Assembly (NCBI RefSeq): GCF_050920415.1
Contig: NZ_CP169309.1
DNA: 64,000 nt
Direction: 5' to 3' (one strand)
From: Escherichia coli
GTDB lineage: Bacteria; Pseudomonadota; Gammaproteobacteria; Enterobacterales; Enterobacteriaceae
This document shows positions 1-57,829 of the stretch, piece by piece; position 1 is the first letter of the stretch; each line of letters opens with the position of its first letter. The translations under genes were made by a program, and so were the position numbers. Under the pieces are notes generated by a model, which was not told where the DNA came from, ran no database searches, and was given only the letters and a program-made list of their open reading frames with translations.

Positions 1-360
1 AACGAAGCCCAGCTGGCGCACTTCCGTCGTATTCTGGAAGCATGGCGTAATCAACTCAGGGATGAAGTCGATCGCACCGTTACACATATGCAGGATGAAG
101 CAGCCAACTTCCCGGATCCGGTAGACCGTGCAGCCCAGGAAGAAGAGTTCAGCCTCGAACTGCGTAACCGCGATCGCGAGCGTAAGCTGATCAAAAAGAT
201 CGAGAAAACGCTGAAAAAAGTGGAAGACGAAGATTTCGGCTACTGCGAATCTTGCGGCGTTGAAATTGGTATTCGTCGTCTGGAAGCGCGCCCGACAGCC
301 GATCTGTGCATCGACTGCAAAACGCTGGCTGAAATTCGCGAAAAACAGATGGCTGGCTAA
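1..360 (+). CDS. dksA: RNA polymerase-binding transcription factor DksA (5' end outside window)
   Basis: Frame 1 reads from base 1 as [19 protein letters not shown]...; ORF track 88..360 ends ...[38 protein letters not shown] with a C-x2-C-x17-C-x2-C zinc finger; stop TAA at 358-360. Confidence 0.95.
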
Positions 361-387
361 TTACAGCCGTTCCATCACGTTTACCAC

Positions 388-417
388 AGGCGGGAAATGC
401 TCCCGCCTTATTTTTTG
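388..417 (+). terminator. Rho-independent terminator after dksA (GC stem aggcggga/tcccgcct followed by T-run)
   Basis: Inverted repeat aggcgggaaatgctcccgcct followed by tattttttg, directly visible in sequence. Confidence 0.7.
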
Positions 418-426
418 TTCAACGAG

Positions 427-1323
427 ATGACAGACACACACTATATTGGTCGCTTCGCCCCCTCTCCTTCTGGCGAGCTTCATTTTGGCTCTCTGATTGC
501 CGCGCTTGGAAGCTTTCTACAGGCTCGCGCCCGGCAAGGTCGCTGGCTTGTTCGCATTGAAGATATCGATCCGCCTCGTGAAGTTCCCGGTGCCGCAGAG
601 ACCATCCTGCGCCAGCTGGAACATTACGGTCTACACTGGGACGGCGATGTTCTCTGGCAATCGCAACGTCACGACGCCTATCGCGAAGCACTCGCATGGT
701 TACATGAGCAAGGGTTAAGTTATTACTGCACCTGCACGCGCGCACGTATTCAAAGCATTGGCGGTATTTACGACGGTCATTGCCGGGAGTTGCATCATGG
801 GCCAGAAAACGCTGCTGTACGTATTCGCCAGCAGCATCCGGTCACCCAGTTTACTGACCAGCTGCGCGGCATTATTCATGCCGACCAAAAACTGGCGCGG
901 GAAGATTTTATTATTCATCGCCGTGATGGTTTATTTGCCTATAACCTGGCGGTGGTCGTTGACGATCACTACCAGGGCGTGACAGAAATTGTCCGTGGCG
1001 CGGATTTGATCGAACCCACGGTGCGCCAAATCTCGCTGTACCAGCTTTTTGGCTGGCAGGTGCCAGATTACATTCATTTGCCACTGGCACTTAATCCACA
1101 AGGCGCTAAACTTTCCAAGCAGAATCATGCGCCTGCGTTGCCAAAAGGCGATCCTCGGCCGGTGTTAATCGCGGCACTTCAATTTCTGGGCCAGCAGGCA
1201 GAAACACACTGGCAGGATTTCAGCGTCGAGCAAATTCTCCAGTCAGCCGTCACAAACTGGACGCTGACTACCATTCCTGACTCGGCAATTGTAAATTCAA
1301 CATTCTCAAATGCGTCATGCTGA
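427..1323 (+). CDS. gluQ: Glutamyl-Q tRNA(Asp) synthetase
   Basis: ORF 397..1323; class I aaRS HIGH-like motif ([12 protein letters not shown]) and GluRS-like catalytic domain without anticodon-binding domain; start placed at in-frame ATG 427 downstream of the terminator hairpin (ORF-track ATG 397 lies inside the hairpin loop). Confidence 0.85.
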
Positions 1324-1382
1324 GCTATGATTAGCCGCTATTTTTTTGTCCTGAATGATGTTTGACACTACCGAGGTGTACT

Positions 1383-2780
1383 ATTTTTACCCGAGTCGCT
1401 AATTTTTGCCGCAAGGTGCTAAGCCGCGAGGAAAGCGAGGCTGAACAGGCAGTCGCCCGTCCACAGGTGACGGTGATCCCGCGTGAGCAGCATGCTATTT
1501 CCCGCAAAGATATCAGTGAAAATGCCCTGAAGGTAATGTACAGGCTCAATAAAGCGGGATACGAAGCCTGGCTGGTTGGCGGCGGCGTACGCGACCTGTT
1601 ACTTGGCAAAAAGCCGAAAGATTTTGACGTGACCACCAACGCCACGCCTGAGCAGGTGCGCAAACTGTTCCGTAACTGCCGCCTGGTGGGTCGCCGTTTC
1701 CGTCTTGCTCATGTCATGTTTGGCCCGGAGATTATCGAAGTTGCGACCTTCCGTGGACATCACGAAGGTAACGTCAGCGACCGCACGACCTCCCAACGCG
1801 GGCAAAACGGCATGTTGCTGCGCGACAACATTTTCGGCTCCATCGAAGAAGACGCCCAACGCCGCGATTTCACTATCAACAGCCTGTATTACAGCGTGGC
1901 AGATTTTACCGTCCGCGATTACGTTGGTGGCATGAAGGATCTGAAAGACGGCGTTATCCGTCTGATTGGTAACCCAGAAACGCGCTACCGTGAAGATCCG
2001 GTACGTATGCTGCGCGCGGTTCGTTTTGCCGCCAAATTGGGCATGCGCATCAGCCCGGAAACCGCAGAACCGATCCCACGCCTGGCAACCTTGCTAAACG
2101 ATATTCCTCCGGCGCGTTTGTTTGAAGAATCTCTGAAACTGTTGCAAGCGGGCTACGGTTACGAAACCTATAAACTGCTGTGTGAATACCATCTGTTCCA
2201 GCCGCTGTTCCCGACCATTACCCGCTACTTTACGGAAAATGGTGACAGTCCAATGGAGCGGATCATTGAGCAGGTGCTGAAGAATACTGACACGCGTATT
2301 CATAACGATATGCGCGTCAACCCGGCGTTCCTGTTTGCCGCCATGTTCTGGTATCCCCTGCTGGAAACAGCACAGAAAATTGCCCAAGAGAGCGGCCTGA
2401 CTTATCACGACGCTTTCGCGCTGGCAATGAACGATGTGTTAGACGAAGCCTGCCGTTCACTGGCGATCCCGAAACGGCTAACCACTTTAACCCGTGATAT
2501 CTGGCAATTACAGTTGCGCATGTCCCGCCGTCAGGGTAAACGCGCATGGAAATTACTCGAACATCCGAAGTTCCGCGCCGCTTATGACCTGCTGGCACTG
2601 CGTGCTGAAGTAGAACGCAACGCCGAGCTACAACGTCTGGCGAAATGGTGGGGTGAGTTCCAGGTTTCCGCGCCGCCAGACCAAAAAGGGATGCTTAACG
2701 AACTGGATGAAGAACCGTCACCGCGTCGTCGTACTCGTCGCCCGCGCAGACGTGCGCCGCGCCGTGAGGGCACCGCATGA
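1383..2780 (+). CDS. pcnB: Poly(A) polymerase I
   Basis: ORF 1362..2780; nucleotidyltransferase motif [17 protein letters not shown] and basic C-terminus; recognised protein begins at the Ile codon ATT 1383 ([11 protein letters not shown]...), consistent with the known non-AUG start of pcnB. Confidence 0.9.
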
Positions 2781-3253
2781 CAGTGGCGTATATTGCCATC
2801 GGCAGCAATCTGGCCTCTCCGCTGGAGCAGGTCAATGCTGCCCTGAAGGCAATAGATGACATTCCTGAAAGCCGCATTCTTGCCGTTTCTTCGTTTTACC
2901 GCACCCCACCGCTGGGGCCGCAAGATCAACCCGATTACTTAAACGCAGCCGTGGCTCTGGAAACCTCTCTTACAGCAGAAGAGCTCCTCAACCACACACA
3001 GCGTATTGAGCTGCAACAGGGTCGTGTCCGCAAAGCTGAACGCTGGGGACCGCGCACGCTCGATCTTGATATCATGTTGTTTGGTAATCAGGTCATAAAC
3101 ACTGAGCGCCTGACCGTTCCGCACTATGATATGAAGAATCGTGGATTTATGTTGTGGCCGCTGTTTGAGATCGCGCCGGAACTCGTGTTTCCTGATGGTG
3201 AAACGTTGCAAGCAAGACTCACTACTTTCCCTCCCAGCCCACAGCACTGGTAA
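2777..3253 (+). CDS. folK: 2-amino-4-hydroxy-6-hydroxymethyldihydropteridine pyrophosphokinase (HPPK)
   Basis: ORF 2777..3253, 158 aa [12 protein letters not shown]...; start overlaps pcnB stop (ATGA). Confidence 0.93.
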
Positions 3254-38808: not shown

Positions 38809-38968
38809 GGGTTATTCCTTATCTATCTAATAACGTTGAGTTTTCTGGAACCTGTCCCATTGAACTCTCGCAGGAAAGCTCAATAAGACAGGTTCTACGT
38901 TTAGTTGCCGCGCTTTTATATGCGCTTGATTTACAACATCTTCTGGATAATTTTTACCAGAAAAATCA

Positions 38969-50186: not shown

Positions 50187-50368
50187 GATGCGACGCTGGC
50201 CTGATAAGACGCGGGCAGCGTCGCATCAGGCATCGTGTGCAAATGTCGGATGCGGCGGGAACGCCTTATCCGACCTGCAAGATCTTTTATATCAACGTGT
50301 TAAAAAATTGTAGGCCTGATAAGACGCGCCAGCGTCGCATCGGGCATCCAGTGTAAATGTTGGATGCC
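50187..50368. repeat. BIME: cluster of 3-4 REP palindromic units
   Basis: Repeated gcctgataagacgcg...cgtcgcatcaggc and gtcggatgcggcg...gccttatccgac units in alternating orientation. Confidence 0.8.
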
Positions 50369-50781: not shown

Positions 50782-50809
50782 AAAAAAGGCGCAGAATCCT
50801 GCGCCTTTT
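50782..50809. terminator. Bidirectional rho-independent terminator between secA and mutT
   Basis: aaaaaa-ggcgcag-aatc-ctgcgcc-tttt. Confidence 0.8.
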
Positions 50810-50826
50810 ACTTCAACTGTTAGCTT

Positions 50827-53532
50827 TTATTGCAGGCGACCGTGGCACTGCTTGTATTTTTTACCAGAACCGCACGGGCAAGGATCATTACGTCCAACTT
50901 TGCGTTCACCAGTTTGTGCCGCCAGTGCAGCTGCGGCTGCAGAGTCGTCATCCTGATGGCTAAGCTGCTGCATTTGCGCTAAACGCTCGGCTTCCATACG
51001 ACGCTGTTGTTCCAGCTCCTCAACCTCTTCAGGCATACGTACCTGAACTTTGCTCAGCGTGCTGATAACTTCATATTTCAACGACTCCAGCATCGCTGCA
51101 AACATGGAGAACGATTCACGTTTGTATTCCTGCTTCGGATCTTTCTGTGCATAGCCACGCAGGTGGATACCTTGACGCAGATAATCCATCGCCGCCAGGT
51201 GCTCTTTCCACAGGGAGTCAAGCGTTTGCAGCATGACGCCTTTCTCGAAGTGACGCATCATCTCAGCGCCAACCACTTCTTCTTTACGCTGATACACTTC
51301 GATGGACTGCGCCAGAATACGCTCACGCAGCGTCTCTTCATGCAGTTCTGGCTCTTTGTCCAGCCACTCGGCAATCGGCAAATCGAGGTCGAAATCGTTC
51401 TTCAGACGTTCCTGCAGCCCCGGAATATCCCACATTTCTTCCAGCGACTGCGGCGGAATGTAGGCATCGATGGTCGCTTTGAACACATCTTCACGAATGC
51501 TGTTGATGGTATCGCTCACATCGCTGACATCCAGCAGTTCATTACGCTGGGAGTAAATGGCGCGACGCTGATCGTTAGCCACGTCATCATATTCCAGCAG
51601 TTGCTTACGAATATCGAAGTTACGGCTTTCAACTTTACGCTGAGCGTTGGCAATCGCTTTGGTCACCCACGGGTGCTCGATGGCTTCGCCTGGTTTCATA
51701 CCCAGTTTACGCATCATGCCGGAAACACGGTCAGAAGCAAAAATACGCATCAGCGCATCTTCCATCGACAGGTAGAAACGGGAAGAACCGGCATCCCCCT
51801 GGCGCCCAGAACGACCGCGTAGCTGGTTATCGATACGACGAGATTCGTGACGTTCTGTACCGATGATATGCAGACCACCTGCAGCCAGTACCGCATCGTG
51901 ACGCACCTGCCAGTCGGCTTTGATTTTTTCAATTTGCTCTGCGGTCGGATTTTCCAGCGCGGCAACTTCTGCCTGCCAGCTACCACCGAGCACAATATCT
52001 GTACCACGACCCGCCATGTTAGTCGCGATAGTCACCGCCGCGGGATAACCCGCTTGTGCAACAATCGCTGCTTCGTTAGCGTGGAATTTGGCGTTCAGAA
52101 CGTTGTGTTTGATACCGGCTTTGGTCAGCTCGTTTGACACCAATTCCGATTTTTCGATGGAGATAGTACCCACCAGCACCGGCTGGCCTTTCGCAGTACG
52201 TTCTTTGATATCTTCAATGATCGCCTGAATTTTTTCCGCTTCAGTCATGTAGACCAGGTCCGGCAGATCTTTACGAATCATTGGACGGTTGGTCGGAACA
52301 ACGACGGTATCCAGCTTATAGATGGAGCTGAATTCGAAAGCTTCGGTATCAGCAGTACCGGTCATCCCCGCCAGTTTTTCATACAGACGGAAGTAGTTCT
52401 GGAAGGTGATCGACGCCAGCGTCTGGTTTTCGTTCTGGATCTGTACACCTTCTTTCGCTTCCACTGCCTGATGCAGGCCATCGGACCAACGACGTCCCTG
52501 CATGGTACGACCGGTGTGTTCGTCAACGATGATAACTTCACCATCTTTAACGATGTAGTCGACGTCTCGGGTAAACAGCGCATGAGCGCGCAGCGCCGCC
52601 GTTACGTGGTGCATCAGCATGATGTTGGCCGGAGAGTACAGAGACTCCCCTTCATCCATGATGCCTTCTTTCACCAGCAGTTCTTCAATCAGCACCAGAC
52701 CACGTTCGGTCAGGTTCACCTGGCGAGATTTTTCGTCCACCGAGAAGTGGCCTTCGCCCTGGAAGGTTTCGGAGTCTTCTTTTTCCTGACGGATCAGGTG
52801 CGGAATAATTTTATTCACGCGTTTATACATTTCCGAGCTGTCTTCTGCCGGGCCGGAAATGATCAGCGGTGTACGCGCTTCATCGATCAGGATGGAGTCC
52901 ACTTCGTCCACCAGCGCATAGTGCAGTTTACGCTGTACACGTTCTTCAGGGCTGAACGCCATGTTATCGCGCAGGTAGTCAAAGCCGTATTCGTTGTTCG
53001 TACCGTAAGTGATGTCAGCTGCGTAAGCTTCACGCTTCGCCGGTGCTGGCATGCCCGGCAGGTTGATACCGACAGTCAGGCCAAGGAATTCAAACAGCGG
53101 ACGGTTGTTTTCGGCGTCACGTTGCGCCAGGTAGTCGTTGACGGTAACAACGTGTACGCCCTTACCGGTTAATGCGTTCAGGTAAGCAGGCAGCGTTGCG
53201 GTCAGGGTTTTACCTTCACCGGTACGCATTTCCGCGATGCAGCGTTCGTTAAGAACCATACCGCCGAGTAACTGAACGTCGAAGTGACGCATACCAAAGA
53301 CGCGCTTACTTGCCTCACGCACCACAGCGAAAGCTTCTGGGATCAGATTTTCCAGCACTTCGCCTTTTTCCAGACGTGCACGAAACTCTGCGGTTTTCCC
53401 TTTCAGTTCTTCGTCGGAGAGTTTTTCCATCTCCGGTTCCATGGCATTGATGATGTTGACGACTTTGCGCATCCGGCGCAGGGTGCGATCGTTACGACTA
53501 CCGAAAACTTTAGTTAATAATTTGATTAGCAT
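50827..53532 (-). CDS. secA: Protein translocase ATPase SecA
   Basis: ORF 901 aa [23 protein letters not shown]...; C-terminal zinc-binding [14 protein letters not shown]. Confidence 0.97.
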
Positions 53533-55354: not shown

Positions 55355-56506
55355 TTAATCAGCTTGCTTACGCAGGAATGCTGGGATATCCAGATAATCC
55401 GGCTCTTTCGCAGTTTGCGGTGCGTTGTCATTCACGACTTTAGCAACCGGTTTCTGCTCCTGAGTCAGCGGTGCCATCCCGTGCTGCTGGTAGCGATCCA
55501 TCACTGGCTGCTGAACCTGCTTATTGGTCACCAGGGTGATTTCAGGACGTTTGTCCATACCGATACCTGTCGCAACAACGGTTACGCGCAGCTCGTCATT
55601 CATATCCGGGTCAAGAGAAGTACCGATAACCACAGTTGCGTTGTCGGATGCAAATGCACGGATGGTGTTACCTACCGTTTCGAACTCATCCAGACGCAGG
55701 TCGAAGCCCGCCGTGATGTTAACCAGCACGCCGCGCGCGCCAGACAGATCGATATCTTCCAGCAGCGGAGAGGAGATAGCCATTTCAGCAGCTTCTTCCG
55801 CACGGTCTTCGCCGCTCGCCACACCAGAACCCATCATTGCGTAGCCCATTTCAGACATTACGGTACGTACGTCTGCAAAGTCCACGTTCATCAGGCCTGG
55901 ACGAGTAATCAGTTCAGCGATACCTTGCACAGCACCTTTCAGTACATCGTTCGCTGCGCCAAATGCATCCAGCAGGGAGATACCGCGGCCCAAGACTTTC
56001 AGCAGTTTGTCGTTAGGGATAGTGATCAGAGAGTCCACATGCTTGGACAGTTCAGTGATCCCCTGCTCAGCGAATGCCATACGCTTCTTGCCTTCAAAGT
56101 TGAAAGGCTTAGTCACGACAGCAACGGTCAGGATCCCCAAATCTTTTGCCACTTCAGCGACAACTGGTGCTGCACCTGTACCGGTACCACCACCCATACC
56201 CGCAGCAATAAAGACCATGTCTGCACCTTCCAGCGCCGCACGCAGTGCATCGCGATCCTCATCAGCCGCATTACGGCCAACTTCTGGATTTGCGCCAGCT
56301 CCCAGTCCTTTGGTGATACCGCTACCGATTTGAATCGTCTGTCCAACCGCTGTTTTACGCAGCGCTTGTGCATCGGTATTTACCGCGAAGAATTCAACAC
56401 CTTCAATGCGCTCGCGCACCATGTGTTCAACAGCATTACCGCCGCCGCCGCCGACGCCGATGACTTTAATCACCGCGTCATTGGTAAGTTCCATTGGTTC
56501 AAACAT
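55355..56506 (-). CDS. ftsZ: Cell division GTPase FtsZ
   Basis: ORF 383 aa; tubulin signature GGGTGTG. Confidence 0.98.
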
Positions 56507-56566
56507 AGTTTCTCTCCGATTTGTGCCTGTCGCCTGAGGCCGTAATCATCGTCGGCCTCATAAAAA

Positions 56567-57829
56567 TTAAAACTCTTTTCGCAGCCAACTATTGAGTCGC
56601 TTGATCCACGAGCCAACTGATGCTGTAACACGTTTTTCTACTTCAGCTTCACCGTTAAGATGTGACTCTTTCCCATAGTGAAGCAATCCCACCGCCGTCG
56701 AATAATACGGCTCCTGAGCATAATCCGTTAAACCGGTAATGTTCAGCGGCGCGCCGATACGCACTTGCGTATGAAACACGCGCTGAGCACAGGCTGCAAG
56801 ACCTTCGATCTGCGCTGCGCCACCAGTTAAAACAATGCCTGCCGCCAGGTGATGTTTAACCCCTTGTTGGCGAAGCTTTTCCTGCAACTGCAATATCTCT
56901 TCGTTGACCAGGTTGAGCAGCTCGGTATAGCGCGGCTCGATCACCTCTGCCAGGGTCTGACGTTGCAGACTCCGCGGTGGACGACCGCCTACGCTCGGCA
57001 CTTCCACGCTCTCATCTTTTCCAACGATGGAACCCAGCGCACAACCGTGGCGAACTTTAATCGCTTCGGCGTCGCTTGGCGGCGTGCCAAAGGCGTAAGC
57101 GATATCACTGGTCACGACATTGCCAGCATAAGGAATTACCTTAGTGTGGCGCAATGCCCCACCGGTATAAACGGCGATATCCATTGTACCACCACCGATA
57201 TCGACGACGCAGACACCCAGTTCACGTTCATCTTCCGTCAATACCGAATAACTTGATGCCAGTCCGGCAAATATCAGTTGGTCAACTTTCAGCCCACAAC
57301 GTTCAACCGCTTTGACGATGTTTTTCGCCATATCGTTGTGACATGTGATCAGATGCACTTTTGCCTGCATCCGCACGCCCGAAAGTCCTACCGGATTCTT
57401 GATCCCTTCCTGATAGTCAATCGCATACTCTTGCGGGATCACATGCAGCACACGATGCTCATCGCGCACACGCACTGATTTCGCGGTATGGACGACGTTT
57501 TCCACATCTTCTTGCGTCACTTCTTCTTCAGAAATAGGCACCATACCAATTTCATTCTGGCAGCTGATGTGCTTACCAGAAAGCGCCAGATATACCGAAG
57601 AGATCTGACAATCTGCCATCAATTCTGCCTGGTCAATGGCGCGTTGTACGCACTTGACCACGGATTCGAGGTCGTTTACCCCGCCTTTATCCATACCACG
57701 CGACGGGCAGCTGCCCACGCCAATGATATTGACCATACCGTCGGGCAGAACTTCCCCTACTAAAGCGGCAACCTTCGCGGTACCAATCTCCAGTCCTACT
57801 ACCAGTTTTCTGTCCGTCGCCTTGATCAT
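56567..57829 (-). CDS. ftsA: Cell division protein FtsA (actin-like ATPase)
   Basis: ORF 420 aa [26 protein letters not shown]... Confidence 0.97.

What the first reader, a model, noticed from the sequence alone, without database searches (positions are those of the whole stretch)
1362..1391. pcnB initiates at a non-AUG (AUU) codon
The recognised PcnB N-terminus [13 protein letters not shown] aligns to the ATT codon at 1383; the nearest in-frame start upstream is TTG 1362 and there is no in-frame ATG. A poor start codon is a known way to keep poly(A) polymerase I levels low.
Basis: partly seen in the sequence, partly recalled or inferred. Interest (0 to 1): 0.4.

Follow-up and report, generated by a model that had tools for sequence, protein, structure and literature searches.

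The report
Known AUU start codon of pcnB
The poly(A) polymerase gene pcnB in this window does begin at the rare start codon ATT, but this was shown experimentally for E. coli in 2002 and is already in reference annotations, so the finding is correct and ordinary.

Summary
ATT 1383-1385 is in frame with TTG 1362. An in-frame TGA lies at 1356-1358, and there is no in-frame ATG between it and the ATT. The ATT sits 4 nt after a strong Shine-Dalgarno, GAGGTG (1373-1378). The interpretation also holds, but it is textbook knowledge (Binns & Masters 2002). RefSeq starts pcnB at exactly this codon, both in the 100%-identical genome and in K-12. K-12 is base-for-base identical to the window from -101 to +200 around the ATT.

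New comparative support:
- All 80 Enterobacteriaceae species examined keep GAGGTG-N4-ATT.
- 43 of the 80 have no canonical in-frame start upstream at all.
- The -21 TTG occurs in only 26 of 80 and has no SD.
- The leader length varies out of frame.
- Aeromonas, Tolumonas and Oceanisphaera keep the ATT. Photobacterium-like relatives have ATC at the aligned codon.

Side observation: positions -11 to +27 are almost invariant even at synonymous sites, including a fixed rare CGA codon 4. folK and gluQ in the same genomes do not show this. A predicted long-range pairing that would mask the SD and AUU has no covariation support.

Verdict: already known, low interest.

The parts
1303..1331 (+). Sigma-70 promoter-like site, TTCTCA-17 nt-TATGAT. 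It is possibly the published major promoter pB; that assignment is inferred, not confirmed.
   Evidence: the only promoter-like match in 1100-1600 (9 of 12). The TATGAT-TAGCCGC motif is present in 72 of 80 species, 36-153 nt upstream of the ATT. The text of PMC2939334 gives no pB coordinates.
1356..1358 (+). In-frame TGA that closes the pcnB reading frame upstream.
   Evidence: The position of the upstream in-frame stop varies from -15 to -177 among the 80 species.
1362..1364 (+). TTG, the rival start 7 codons upstream. It is also the first 3 bases of a perfect TTGACA hexamer (1362-1367).
   Evidence: One search lists the ORF from here. The anti-SD duplex is only -1.5 kcal/mol. A TTG at -21 is present in only 26 of 80 species.
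1373..1378 (+). Shine-Dalgarno GAGGTG, 4 nt before the ATT.
   Evidence: Invariant in 80 of 80 species. It gives -9.8 kcal/mol with the 16S 3' end. It is also present in Aeromonas, Tolumonas, Oceanisphaera, Photobacterium and a reduced-genome relative.
1383..1385 (+). ATT (AUU) initiation codon of pcnB.
   Evidence: RefSeq CDS start. ATT in 80 of 80 species. The literature is covered.
1383..2780 (+). pcnB coding sequence for poly(A) polymerase I: 465 codons plus the TGA stop.
   Evidence: NCBIfam NF008634 PcnB equivalog scores 997.7 bits against a cut-off of 702, aligning residues 1-464 to profile positions 1-468 of 469. The protein differs from K-12 PcnB at 2 residues. It matches PDB 3AQK/3AQL/3AQM poly(A) polymerase.
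1372..1409 (+). Block from -11 to +27 that is nearly invariant at the nucleotide level, synonymous sites included. It contains the fixed rare Arg codon CGA at 1392-1394.
   Evidence: Synonymous heterozygosity of codons 2-9 is 0.015 against a gene mean of 0.38 (0 of 200,000 permutations as low). CGA is present in 80 of 80 species. The controls folK and gluQ show ordinary diversity at their 5' ends.
1516..1528 (+). GUGAAAAUGCCCU (codons 45-49), the candidate long-range partner of the SD and AUU (1374-1390). Weakly supported.
   Evidence: The pairing is in the MFE of 1338-1560. Its median pair probability is 0.52 over 80 species. 96.8% of cells are paired but there are no compensatory changes. 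It decays without compensation in outgroups.
2777..2780 (+). ATGA overlap of the pcnB stop (TGA 2778-2780) with the folK start (ATG 2777-2779).

Best explanation
pcnB (poly(A) polymerase I) is translated from AUU 1383-1385. The 30S subunit is positioned by the strong, invariant Shine-Dalgarno GAGGUG 4 nt upstream. fMet-tRNA then pairs imperfectly with AUU, a codon that initiation factor IF3 discriminates against, so few initiation events succeed. This keeps the enzyme scarce, at the reported 30-50 molecules per cell. That matters because excess PAP I polyadenylates mature tRNAs and kills the cell.

Shown here: the anatomy, the annotation, the conservation and the absence of any alternative start in most relatives.
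Taken from the literature: initiation at AUU and its limiting effect in K-12, whose sequence is identical here.
Inferred: IF3 dependence for pcnB specifically.
For: Anatomy.
Annotation: the RefSeq CDS starts at this ATT in the identical genome and in K-12.
K-12 match: K-12 is identical to the window from -101 to +200.
SD strength: -9.8 kcal/mol for the ATT, against -1.5 for TTG 1362, -0.1 for GTG 1416 and -3.7 for ATG 1536.
Conservation: 80 of 80 Enterobacteriaceae species have GAGGTG-N4-ATT. 43 of 80 have no ATG, GTG or TTG in frame between the upstream stop and the ATT, so the conserved [12 protein letters not shown] peptide cannot be reached from a canonical codon.
Coding upstream of GTG 1416: codons 10, 11, 13 and 15 vary only synonymously.
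Leader: its length between the conserved TATGAT motif and the ATT varies by non-multiples of 3.
Family model: the PcnB equivalog profile begins at residue 1 of the ATT-initiated protein.
Outgroups: Aeromonas, Tolumonas, Oceanisphaera and a reduced-genome relative keep the same arrangement, and two of them are annotated with ATT.
Literature: AUU start and translational limitation in PMC2939334, PMC3561954 and PMC9764084. Only infC and pcnB are confirmed AUU starts in E. coli, and AUU gives 1-2% of AUG, in 10.1101/063800. AUU is 6-8 fold below AUG in PMC3592434. Toxicity of excess PAP I is in PMC3561954.
Against: No direct experimental read-out exists for this organism. The primary paper (Binns & Masters 2002) is not held in the library, so its N-terminal and mutational data are known here only through citing papers and my own recollection. 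A recent N-terminomics supplement does not list pcnB. One paper calls the start UUG in its introduction and AUU in its discussion (PMC3561954). Papers describe a 'poor ribosome binding site', whereas the SD computed here is strong. Western blots show two PAP I bands, which the authors suggest could be a second, shorter isoform (PMC2939334).
Confidence: 0.95

Rival explanations
1. Translation starts at TTG 1362 and gives a 472-residue protein. The ATT is then simply an internal isoleucine codon.
For: TTG 1362 is the first canonical start after the in-frame stop, and mechanical ORF calling begins there. The introduction of PMC3561954 names UUG as the initiation codon. Gene callers extend PcnB upstream in other taxa.
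Against: There is no SD (-1.5 kcal/mol). A TTG at -21 is found in only 26 of 80 species, and 43 of 80 have no canonical upstream start at all. The upstream region carries indels that are not multiples of 3. The 7 extra residues fall outside the PcnB equivalog profile, which starts at the ATT residue. RefSeq and K-12 curation use the ATT.
Confidence: 0.03
2. The main product starts further downstream. Candidates are GTG 1416 (codon 12) and ATG 1536 (codon 52, the start originally proposed by Liu & Parkinson and served by the internal sigma-S promoter pS1). On this view the conserved upstream block is 5' UTR.
For: GTG at codon 12 is invariant in 80 of 80 species. PMC2939334 reports that pS1, located downstream of the ATT, is active in vitro and under special conditions in vivo. 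It suggests a shorter AUG-initiated isoform could explain a second western-blot band. ATG 1536 has a modest AAGG SD (-3.7 kcal/mol).
Against: GTG 1416 has no SD (-0.1). Codons 10 and 11 upstream of it show purely synonymous variation, which marks them as coding. ATG at codon 52 exists in only 23 of 80 species. A protein starting there would lack the strongly conserved [15 protein letters not shown] segment. pS1 is silent in wild-type cells (PMC2939334). The equivalog profile covers residues 1-464. At most this describes a minor conditional isoform.
Confidence: 0.02
3. An additional layer, not exclusive of the AUU start: the invariant block -11..+27 is a discrete cis-regulatory RNA element. One possibility is that the SD and AUU (1374-1390) are masked by long-range pairing with GUGAAAAUGCCCU (1516-1528). 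Another is that the block is a binding site for a trans-acting factor.
For: Near-zero synonymous variation in codons 2-9 (0.015 vs 0.38; 0 of 200,000 permutations as low). A second low-variation patch at codons 41-47. The effect is absent from folK and gluQ in the same genomes. A non-preferred CGA codon is fixed in 80 of 80 species and is never replaced by other rare Arg codons. The helix appears in the MFE, has a median pair probability of 0.52 across 80 species, and 96.8% of cells are paired against 37-60% for slid controls.
Against: There are no compensatory changes. The slid-control excess is expected because the structure was derived from these sequences. The 3' arm encodes the conserved peptide SENAL, so it is constrained anyway. 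11-13 of 73 distinct sequences break individual pairs. Pairing drops to 11, 10, 9, 7 and 3 of 13 in outgroups without compensation. About 11 of 80 species predict the helix at probability near 0. The local start region folds less well than shuffles (z = +1.47), which fits simple selection for an open initiation region around a weak start codon.
Confidence: 0.15

Closest known systems
E. coli K-12 pcnB (b0143), AUU-initiated poly(A) polymerase I (Binns & Masters 2002, Mol Microbiol 44:1287)
   Same: Same gene and same dksA-gluQ-pcnB-folK context. The DNA is identical from -101 to +200 around the ATT, and the protein differs at 2 of 465 residues. The annotated ATT start is the same.
   Different: The surrounding DNA is only about 93% identical to K-12, so the window comes from a divergent Escherichia lineage. 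Nothing differs at the start site itself.
infC (IF3), the other confirmed AUU-initiated E. coli gene
   Same: A non-canonical AUU start limits translation, and IF3 discriminates against such codons.
   Different: infC is autoregulated by its own product and uses AUU or AUC in all bacteria (PMC5499595). For pcnB no feedback loop is known, and its non-AUG start is limited to part of the Gammaproteobacteria. More distant relatives appear to use TTG or ATG.
Other regulated non-canonical starts: E. faecalis ebpA (ATT), S. aureus cvfC1 (AUU) and infC (AUA), Streptomyces sigR (GTC)
   Same: A weak start codon is used to attenuate expression. In S. aureus such codons are accompanied by extended or strong SD motifs (PMC13009471), as with the strong GAGGUG here.
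   Different: They are unrelated genes in unrelated organisms. The resemblance is one of mechanism only.

Membership tests
PcnB / poly(A) polymerase I (NCBIfam NF008634 equivalog) | Whole-protein score above the curated cut-off, with a full-length match | tested here: met
   997.7 bits against a cut-off of 702. Residues 1-464 align to profile positions 1-468 of 469. TIGR01942 also scores 525.5 against 305.65.
PcnB / poly(A) polymerase I (NCBIfam NF008634 equivalog) | Conserved genomic context (dksA-gluQ-pcnB-folK) | tested here: met
   The same order is seen in distant relatives.
PcnB / poly(A) polymerase I (NCBIfam NF008634 equivalog) | Poly(A)-adding rather than CCA-adding activity | not testable with these tools
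   Only inferred: CCA-enzyme models score far below their cut-offs, and the protein is near-identical to the crystallised E. coli PAP I.
AUU-initiated, translationally limited genes (infC / pcnB type) | ATT/AUU at the head of the conserved protein, with no usable canonical start upstream | tested here: met
   ATT in 80 of 80 species. 43 of 80 have no in-frame ATG, GTG or TTG upstream. TTG 1362 is unconserved and lacks an SD.
AUU-initiated, translationally limited genes (infC / pcnB type) | Shine-Dalgarno at functional spacing from the non-canonical codon | tested here: met
   GAGGTG lies 4 nt before the ATT, is invariant, and gives -9.8 kcal/mol.
AUU-initiated, translationally limited genes (infC / pcnB type) | Experimentally mapped N-terminus or initiation at the AUU | not testable with these tools
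   Rests on Binns & Masters 2002 for the identical K-12 sequence, as cited. The paper itself is not held. pcnB is absent from one N-terminomics supplement.
AUU-initiated, translationally limited genes (infC / pcnB type) | Expression rises when AUU is changed to AUG; IF3-dependent discrimination | not testable with these tools
   Literature only. The limiting effect is stated in PMC3561954 and PMC9764084. Generic AUU efficiency is 1-2% or 6-8 fold below AUG. IF3 dependence for pcnB specifically is inferred.

The most novel reading that the evidence does not exclude
The roughly 40-nt block around the AUU (window 1372-1409) is frozen even at synonymous sites in 80 species and contains a fixed rare CGA codon. 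On the most novel reading it is a dedicated cis-regulatory element that adds a second, possibly condition-responsive, layer of translational control on top of the weak start codon. It could be the 5' arm of a long-range helix with codons 45-49 that masks the SD and AUU, or the binding site of an unknown sRNA or protein.
Probability: 0.15. Interest if true: 0.4.

Novelty: already known. Interest (0 to 1): 0.1.

Why it matters
It matters mainly for annotation hygiene. Start-codon callers that allow only ATG, GTG and TTG mis-start this gene: the mechanical ORF begins at TTG 1362, and public PcnB entries from Aeromonas, Tolumonas and Photobacterium carry spurious 'RCTIF'-type extensions that are really the translated Shine-Dalgarno. 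Biologically, the AUU start is one of the ways cells hold a toxic RNA-tailing enzyme at a few dozen copies. The comparative data here show the SD-N4-ATT arrangement is fixed across Enterobacteriaceae and reaches Aeromonadales. This supports and extends, but does not change, what was published in 2002.

Tried and rejected
- TTG 1362 as the start: rejected for lack of an SD, lack of conservation and out-of-frame leader indels.
- GTG 1416 or ATG 1536 as the main start: rejected because there is coding-type variation upstream of codon 12, no SD at GTG 1416, and ATG 52 occurs in only 23 of 80 species.
- The +1-frame small ORF ATGATG 1355 to TAA 1400-1402, overlapping the start: its ATGATG is confined to Escherichia, so it was not pursued.
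- Long-range SD/AUU masking helix: tested by MFE, per-species pair probabilities, formal pair counting and outgroups. No covariation was found, so it is kept only as a low-probability idea.
- Local structure around the start: the region folds less well than shuffles (z = +1.47), so there is no local repressing hairpin.
- Short direct repeats ATTTTTACC/ATTTTTGCC and CTATTTTT: too short to mean anything.
- Primary paper: reading it failed because it is not held.
- N-terminomics supplement: searched for pcnB with no hits.
- Promoter coordinates (pB, pS1): could not be recovered from the text of PMC2939334, so the promoter assignments in window coordinates remain inferred.
- Rfam: no hit near the locus.

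Full report
**What is there**

Window 1-3253 carries the 3' end of dksA, gluQ (to 1323), pcnB and folK on the + strand. In the pcnB frame the codons read:

TGA(1356-58) TGT TTG(1362-64) ACA CTA CCG AGG TGT ACT ATT(1383-85) TTT ACC CGA GTC GCT AAT TTT TGC CGC AAG GTG CTA

This translates to ..[14 protein letters not shown].
- ATT lies at 1383.
- The only canonical in-frame start upstream is TTG 1362.
- There is no in-frame ATG between the stop and the ATT.

The ORF ends at TGA 2778-2780, which overlaps the folK ATG (ATGA, 2777-2780).

**Is the ATT the start?**

Annotation:
- The only 100%-identical record in the E. coli genome collection (NZ_CP169399.1) has its RefSeq pcnB CDS starting at locus 1684, which is window 1383.
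- K-12 MG1655 b0143 is likewise annotated from ATT.
- K-12 shows no difference from the window between -101 and +200 of that codon, and the proteins differ at 2 of 465 residues.
- The NCBIfam PcnB equivalog (NF008634) scores 997.7 bits against a cut-off of 702. It aligns from residue 1 of the ATT-initiated protein to profile position 1.

Ribosome binding. Duplex energies with the 16S 3' end:

| Candidate start | Energy (kcal/mol) |
|---|---|
| ATT 1383 (via GAGGUG, 4 nt upstream) | -9.8 |
| TTG 1362 | -1.5 |
| GTG 1416 | -0.1 |
| ATG 1536 | -3.7 |

A score of -9.0 or better is reached by about 2.6% of random window positions.

**Comparative evidence**

A scan of one genome per species returned 80 Enterobacteriaceae loci, from Escherichia to Pluralibacter, with 86-100% protein identity.
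- All 80 have ATT at the aligned codon and an invariant GAGGTG with the same 4-nt spacer length.
- In 43 of 80 there is no ATG, GTG or TTG in frame between the upstream stop and the ATT. The invariant peptide [12 protein letters not shown] cannot be reached from a canonical start in those species.
- The -21 TTG occurs in 26 of 80.
- Upstream of the SD the sequences diverge with indels. A conserved TATGAT-TAGCCGC motif is present in 72 of 80, and in the window it is part of a TTCTCA-17-TATGAT promoter-like site at 1303-1331. It lies 36 to 153 nt from the ATT, at spacings that are not multiples of three. That region is therefore leader, not coding.
- Codons 10, 11, 13 and 15 vary only synonymously. 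The frame is thus coding upstream of the invariant GTG at codon 12, which rules that codon out as the main start.
- ATG at codon 52, the start originally proposed by Liu & Parkinson, exists in only 23 of 80 species.

**Beyond Enterobacteriaceae**
- Aeromonas hydrophila, Tolumonas auensis, Oceanisphaera avium and a reduced-genome relative keep GAGGTG-N4-ATT. Two of them are annotated from ATT.
- Photobacterium ganghwense and an unnamed relative have ATC at the aligned codon behind GAGGT(G/T).
- A Colwellia-like contig seems to use TTG and another relative ATG.
- Several public N-termini (M..RCTIF.., MRCIIF..) are upstream extensions whose 'RCT' is simply the translated SD plus spacer.

**Mechanism**

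From the literature:
- pcnB starts at AUU, and this limits PAP I synthesis (PMC2939334; PMC3561954; PMC9764084).
- infC and pcnB are the only confirmed AUU starts in E. coli (10.1101/063800; PMC5499595; PMC4245954).
- AUU initiates at 1-2% of AUG, or 6-8 fold below AUG (PMC3592434).
- PAP I is present at about 30-50 molecules per cell, and its overproduction polyadenylates tRNAs and kills the cell.
- IF3 discriminates against AUU. That this applies to pcnB specifically is my inference.

The primary paper is not held, so its experimental details are second-hand here.

**Two discrepancies worth recording**
- PMC3561954 names UUG in its introduction and AUU in its discussion.
- The often-repeated 'poor ribosome-binding site' does not fit the strong, invariant SD in front of the AUU. 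It may date from the time UUG was assumed to be the start.

**Side observation: a frozen block around the start**

Positions -11 to +27 (1372-1409) are almost frozen.
- Synonymous heterozygosity of codons 2-9 is 0.015, against a mean of 0.38 for the 276 invariant degenerate amino-acid columns of the gene. None of 200,000 random draws was as low.
- The non-preferred Arg codon CGA at codon 4 is fixed in 80 of 80 species.
- The 5' ends of folK and gluQ in the same genomes show ordinary synonymous diversity of 0.2-0.5, so this is not a generic 5'-end effect.
- A second low-diversity patch covers codons 41-47.

A long-range helix is predicted that would mask the start.
- Folding 1338-1560 pairs the SD and AUU (1374-1390) with GUGAAAAUGCCCU at 1516-1528.
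- The helix has a median probability of 0.52 over the 80 species.
- 96.8% of cells are paired, against 37-60% for slid controls.

The evidence against that helix is stronger.
- There is not one compensatory change.
- Individual pairs are broken in 6-12 of the 73 distinct sequences.
- The 3' arm encodes the conserved SENAL motif, so it is constrained regardless.
- Pairing decays uncompensated in outgroups, to 11, 10, 9, 7 and 3 of 13 pairs.
- Locally the start region folds less well than shuffles (z = +1.47).

I therefore treat the helix as unproven. The simplest reading is strong selection to preserve an open, precisely tuned initiation region around a weak start codon.

**Comparison and verdict**

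This is the same gene and the same start-site sequence as the published E. coli case, and it meets every sequence-level criterion that can be tested here. Interest is low.

Noticed in passing
window 1372-1409 (and codon 4, 1392-1394): Positions -11 to +27 around the ATT are nearly invariant at synonymous sites in 80 species (0.015 vs 0.38 gene mean). The rare Arg codon CGA is fixed in 80 of 80 and recurs in Photobacterium and a reduced-genome relative. folK and gluQ 5' ends in the same genomes are ordinary. The cause is unknown.
   Followed up: partly
window 1503-1528 with 1374-1390: There is a second patch of low synonymous variation at codons 41-47. A predicted long-range helix would sequester the SD and AUU: it is in the MFE, has median probability 0.52 and 96.8% of cells paired. 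It has no covariation and decays uncompensated in outgroups.
   Followed up: yes
window 1373-1378: The SD in front of the AUU is strong (-9.8 kcal/mol, top ~2.6% of window positions) and invariant. Several papers nevertheless repeat that pcnB has a 'poor ribosome binding site', and one of them names UUG as the start in its introduction.
   Followed up: partly
L083, L086, L087 (Aeromonas, Photobacterium, Tolumonas pcnB loci); proteins P0152, P0158, P0184, P0200: Public PcnB entries in these genera start at upstream TTG, GTG or ATG codons and read M..RCTIF / MRCIIF. The 'RCT' is the translated GAGGTG SD plus spacer, so these N-termini look over-extended. The DNA keeps GAGGTG-N4-ATT (ATC in Photobacterium).
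   Followed up: partly
window 1281-1589, within 1-3209: The window is only 93.05% identical to K-12 over 3209 nt, with 10-15 differences per 100 nt in gluQ and distal pcnB. It nevertheless has a 308-nt difference-free run spanning the pcnB promoter, start and first 69 codons. Codons 16-30 are variable among genera, so this looks more like a recombination tract than constraint. The pcnB CDS is 92-93% identical to K-12, E. albertii and E. whittamii alike, so the source is a divergent Escherichia lineage.
   Followed up: partly
window 1355-1402: A +1-frame 15-codon ORF (ATGATG...[18 protein letters not shown]) overlaps the SD and the ATT. It has no SD (-0.5 kcal/mol), and its ATGATG is present only in Escherichia.
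   Followed up: partly
window 1362-1367: The rival TTG start is the first three bases of a perfect -35-type hexamer TTGACA. It may belong to one of the published internal or alternative pcnB promoters (pS1), but no coordinates could be recovered from the text.
   Followed up: no
window 388-429: An intrinsic-terminator-like hairpin (AGGCGGGAAATGCTCCCGCCT plus a T-run) sits between dksA and gluQ and contains the ATG 397 of the long gluQ ORF. RefSeq PGAP starts gluQRS at window 427 (298 aa), whereas the K-12 annotation uses the equivalent of 397 (308 aa).
   Followed up: no
window 2777-2780: The pcnB stop and folK start overlap as ATGA, which suggests translational coupling of folK to the poorly translated pcnB.
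   Followed up: no
window 38811-38924 (+), 50198-50275 (-), 50782-50851 (-), 56498-56587 (-): Rfam gathering-level hits are tp2, naRNA4 (CssrE), STnc40 and PssrA. PssrA is described as a plasmid-encoded Shigella sRNA but is found here in a chromosomal-looking context.
   Followed up: no
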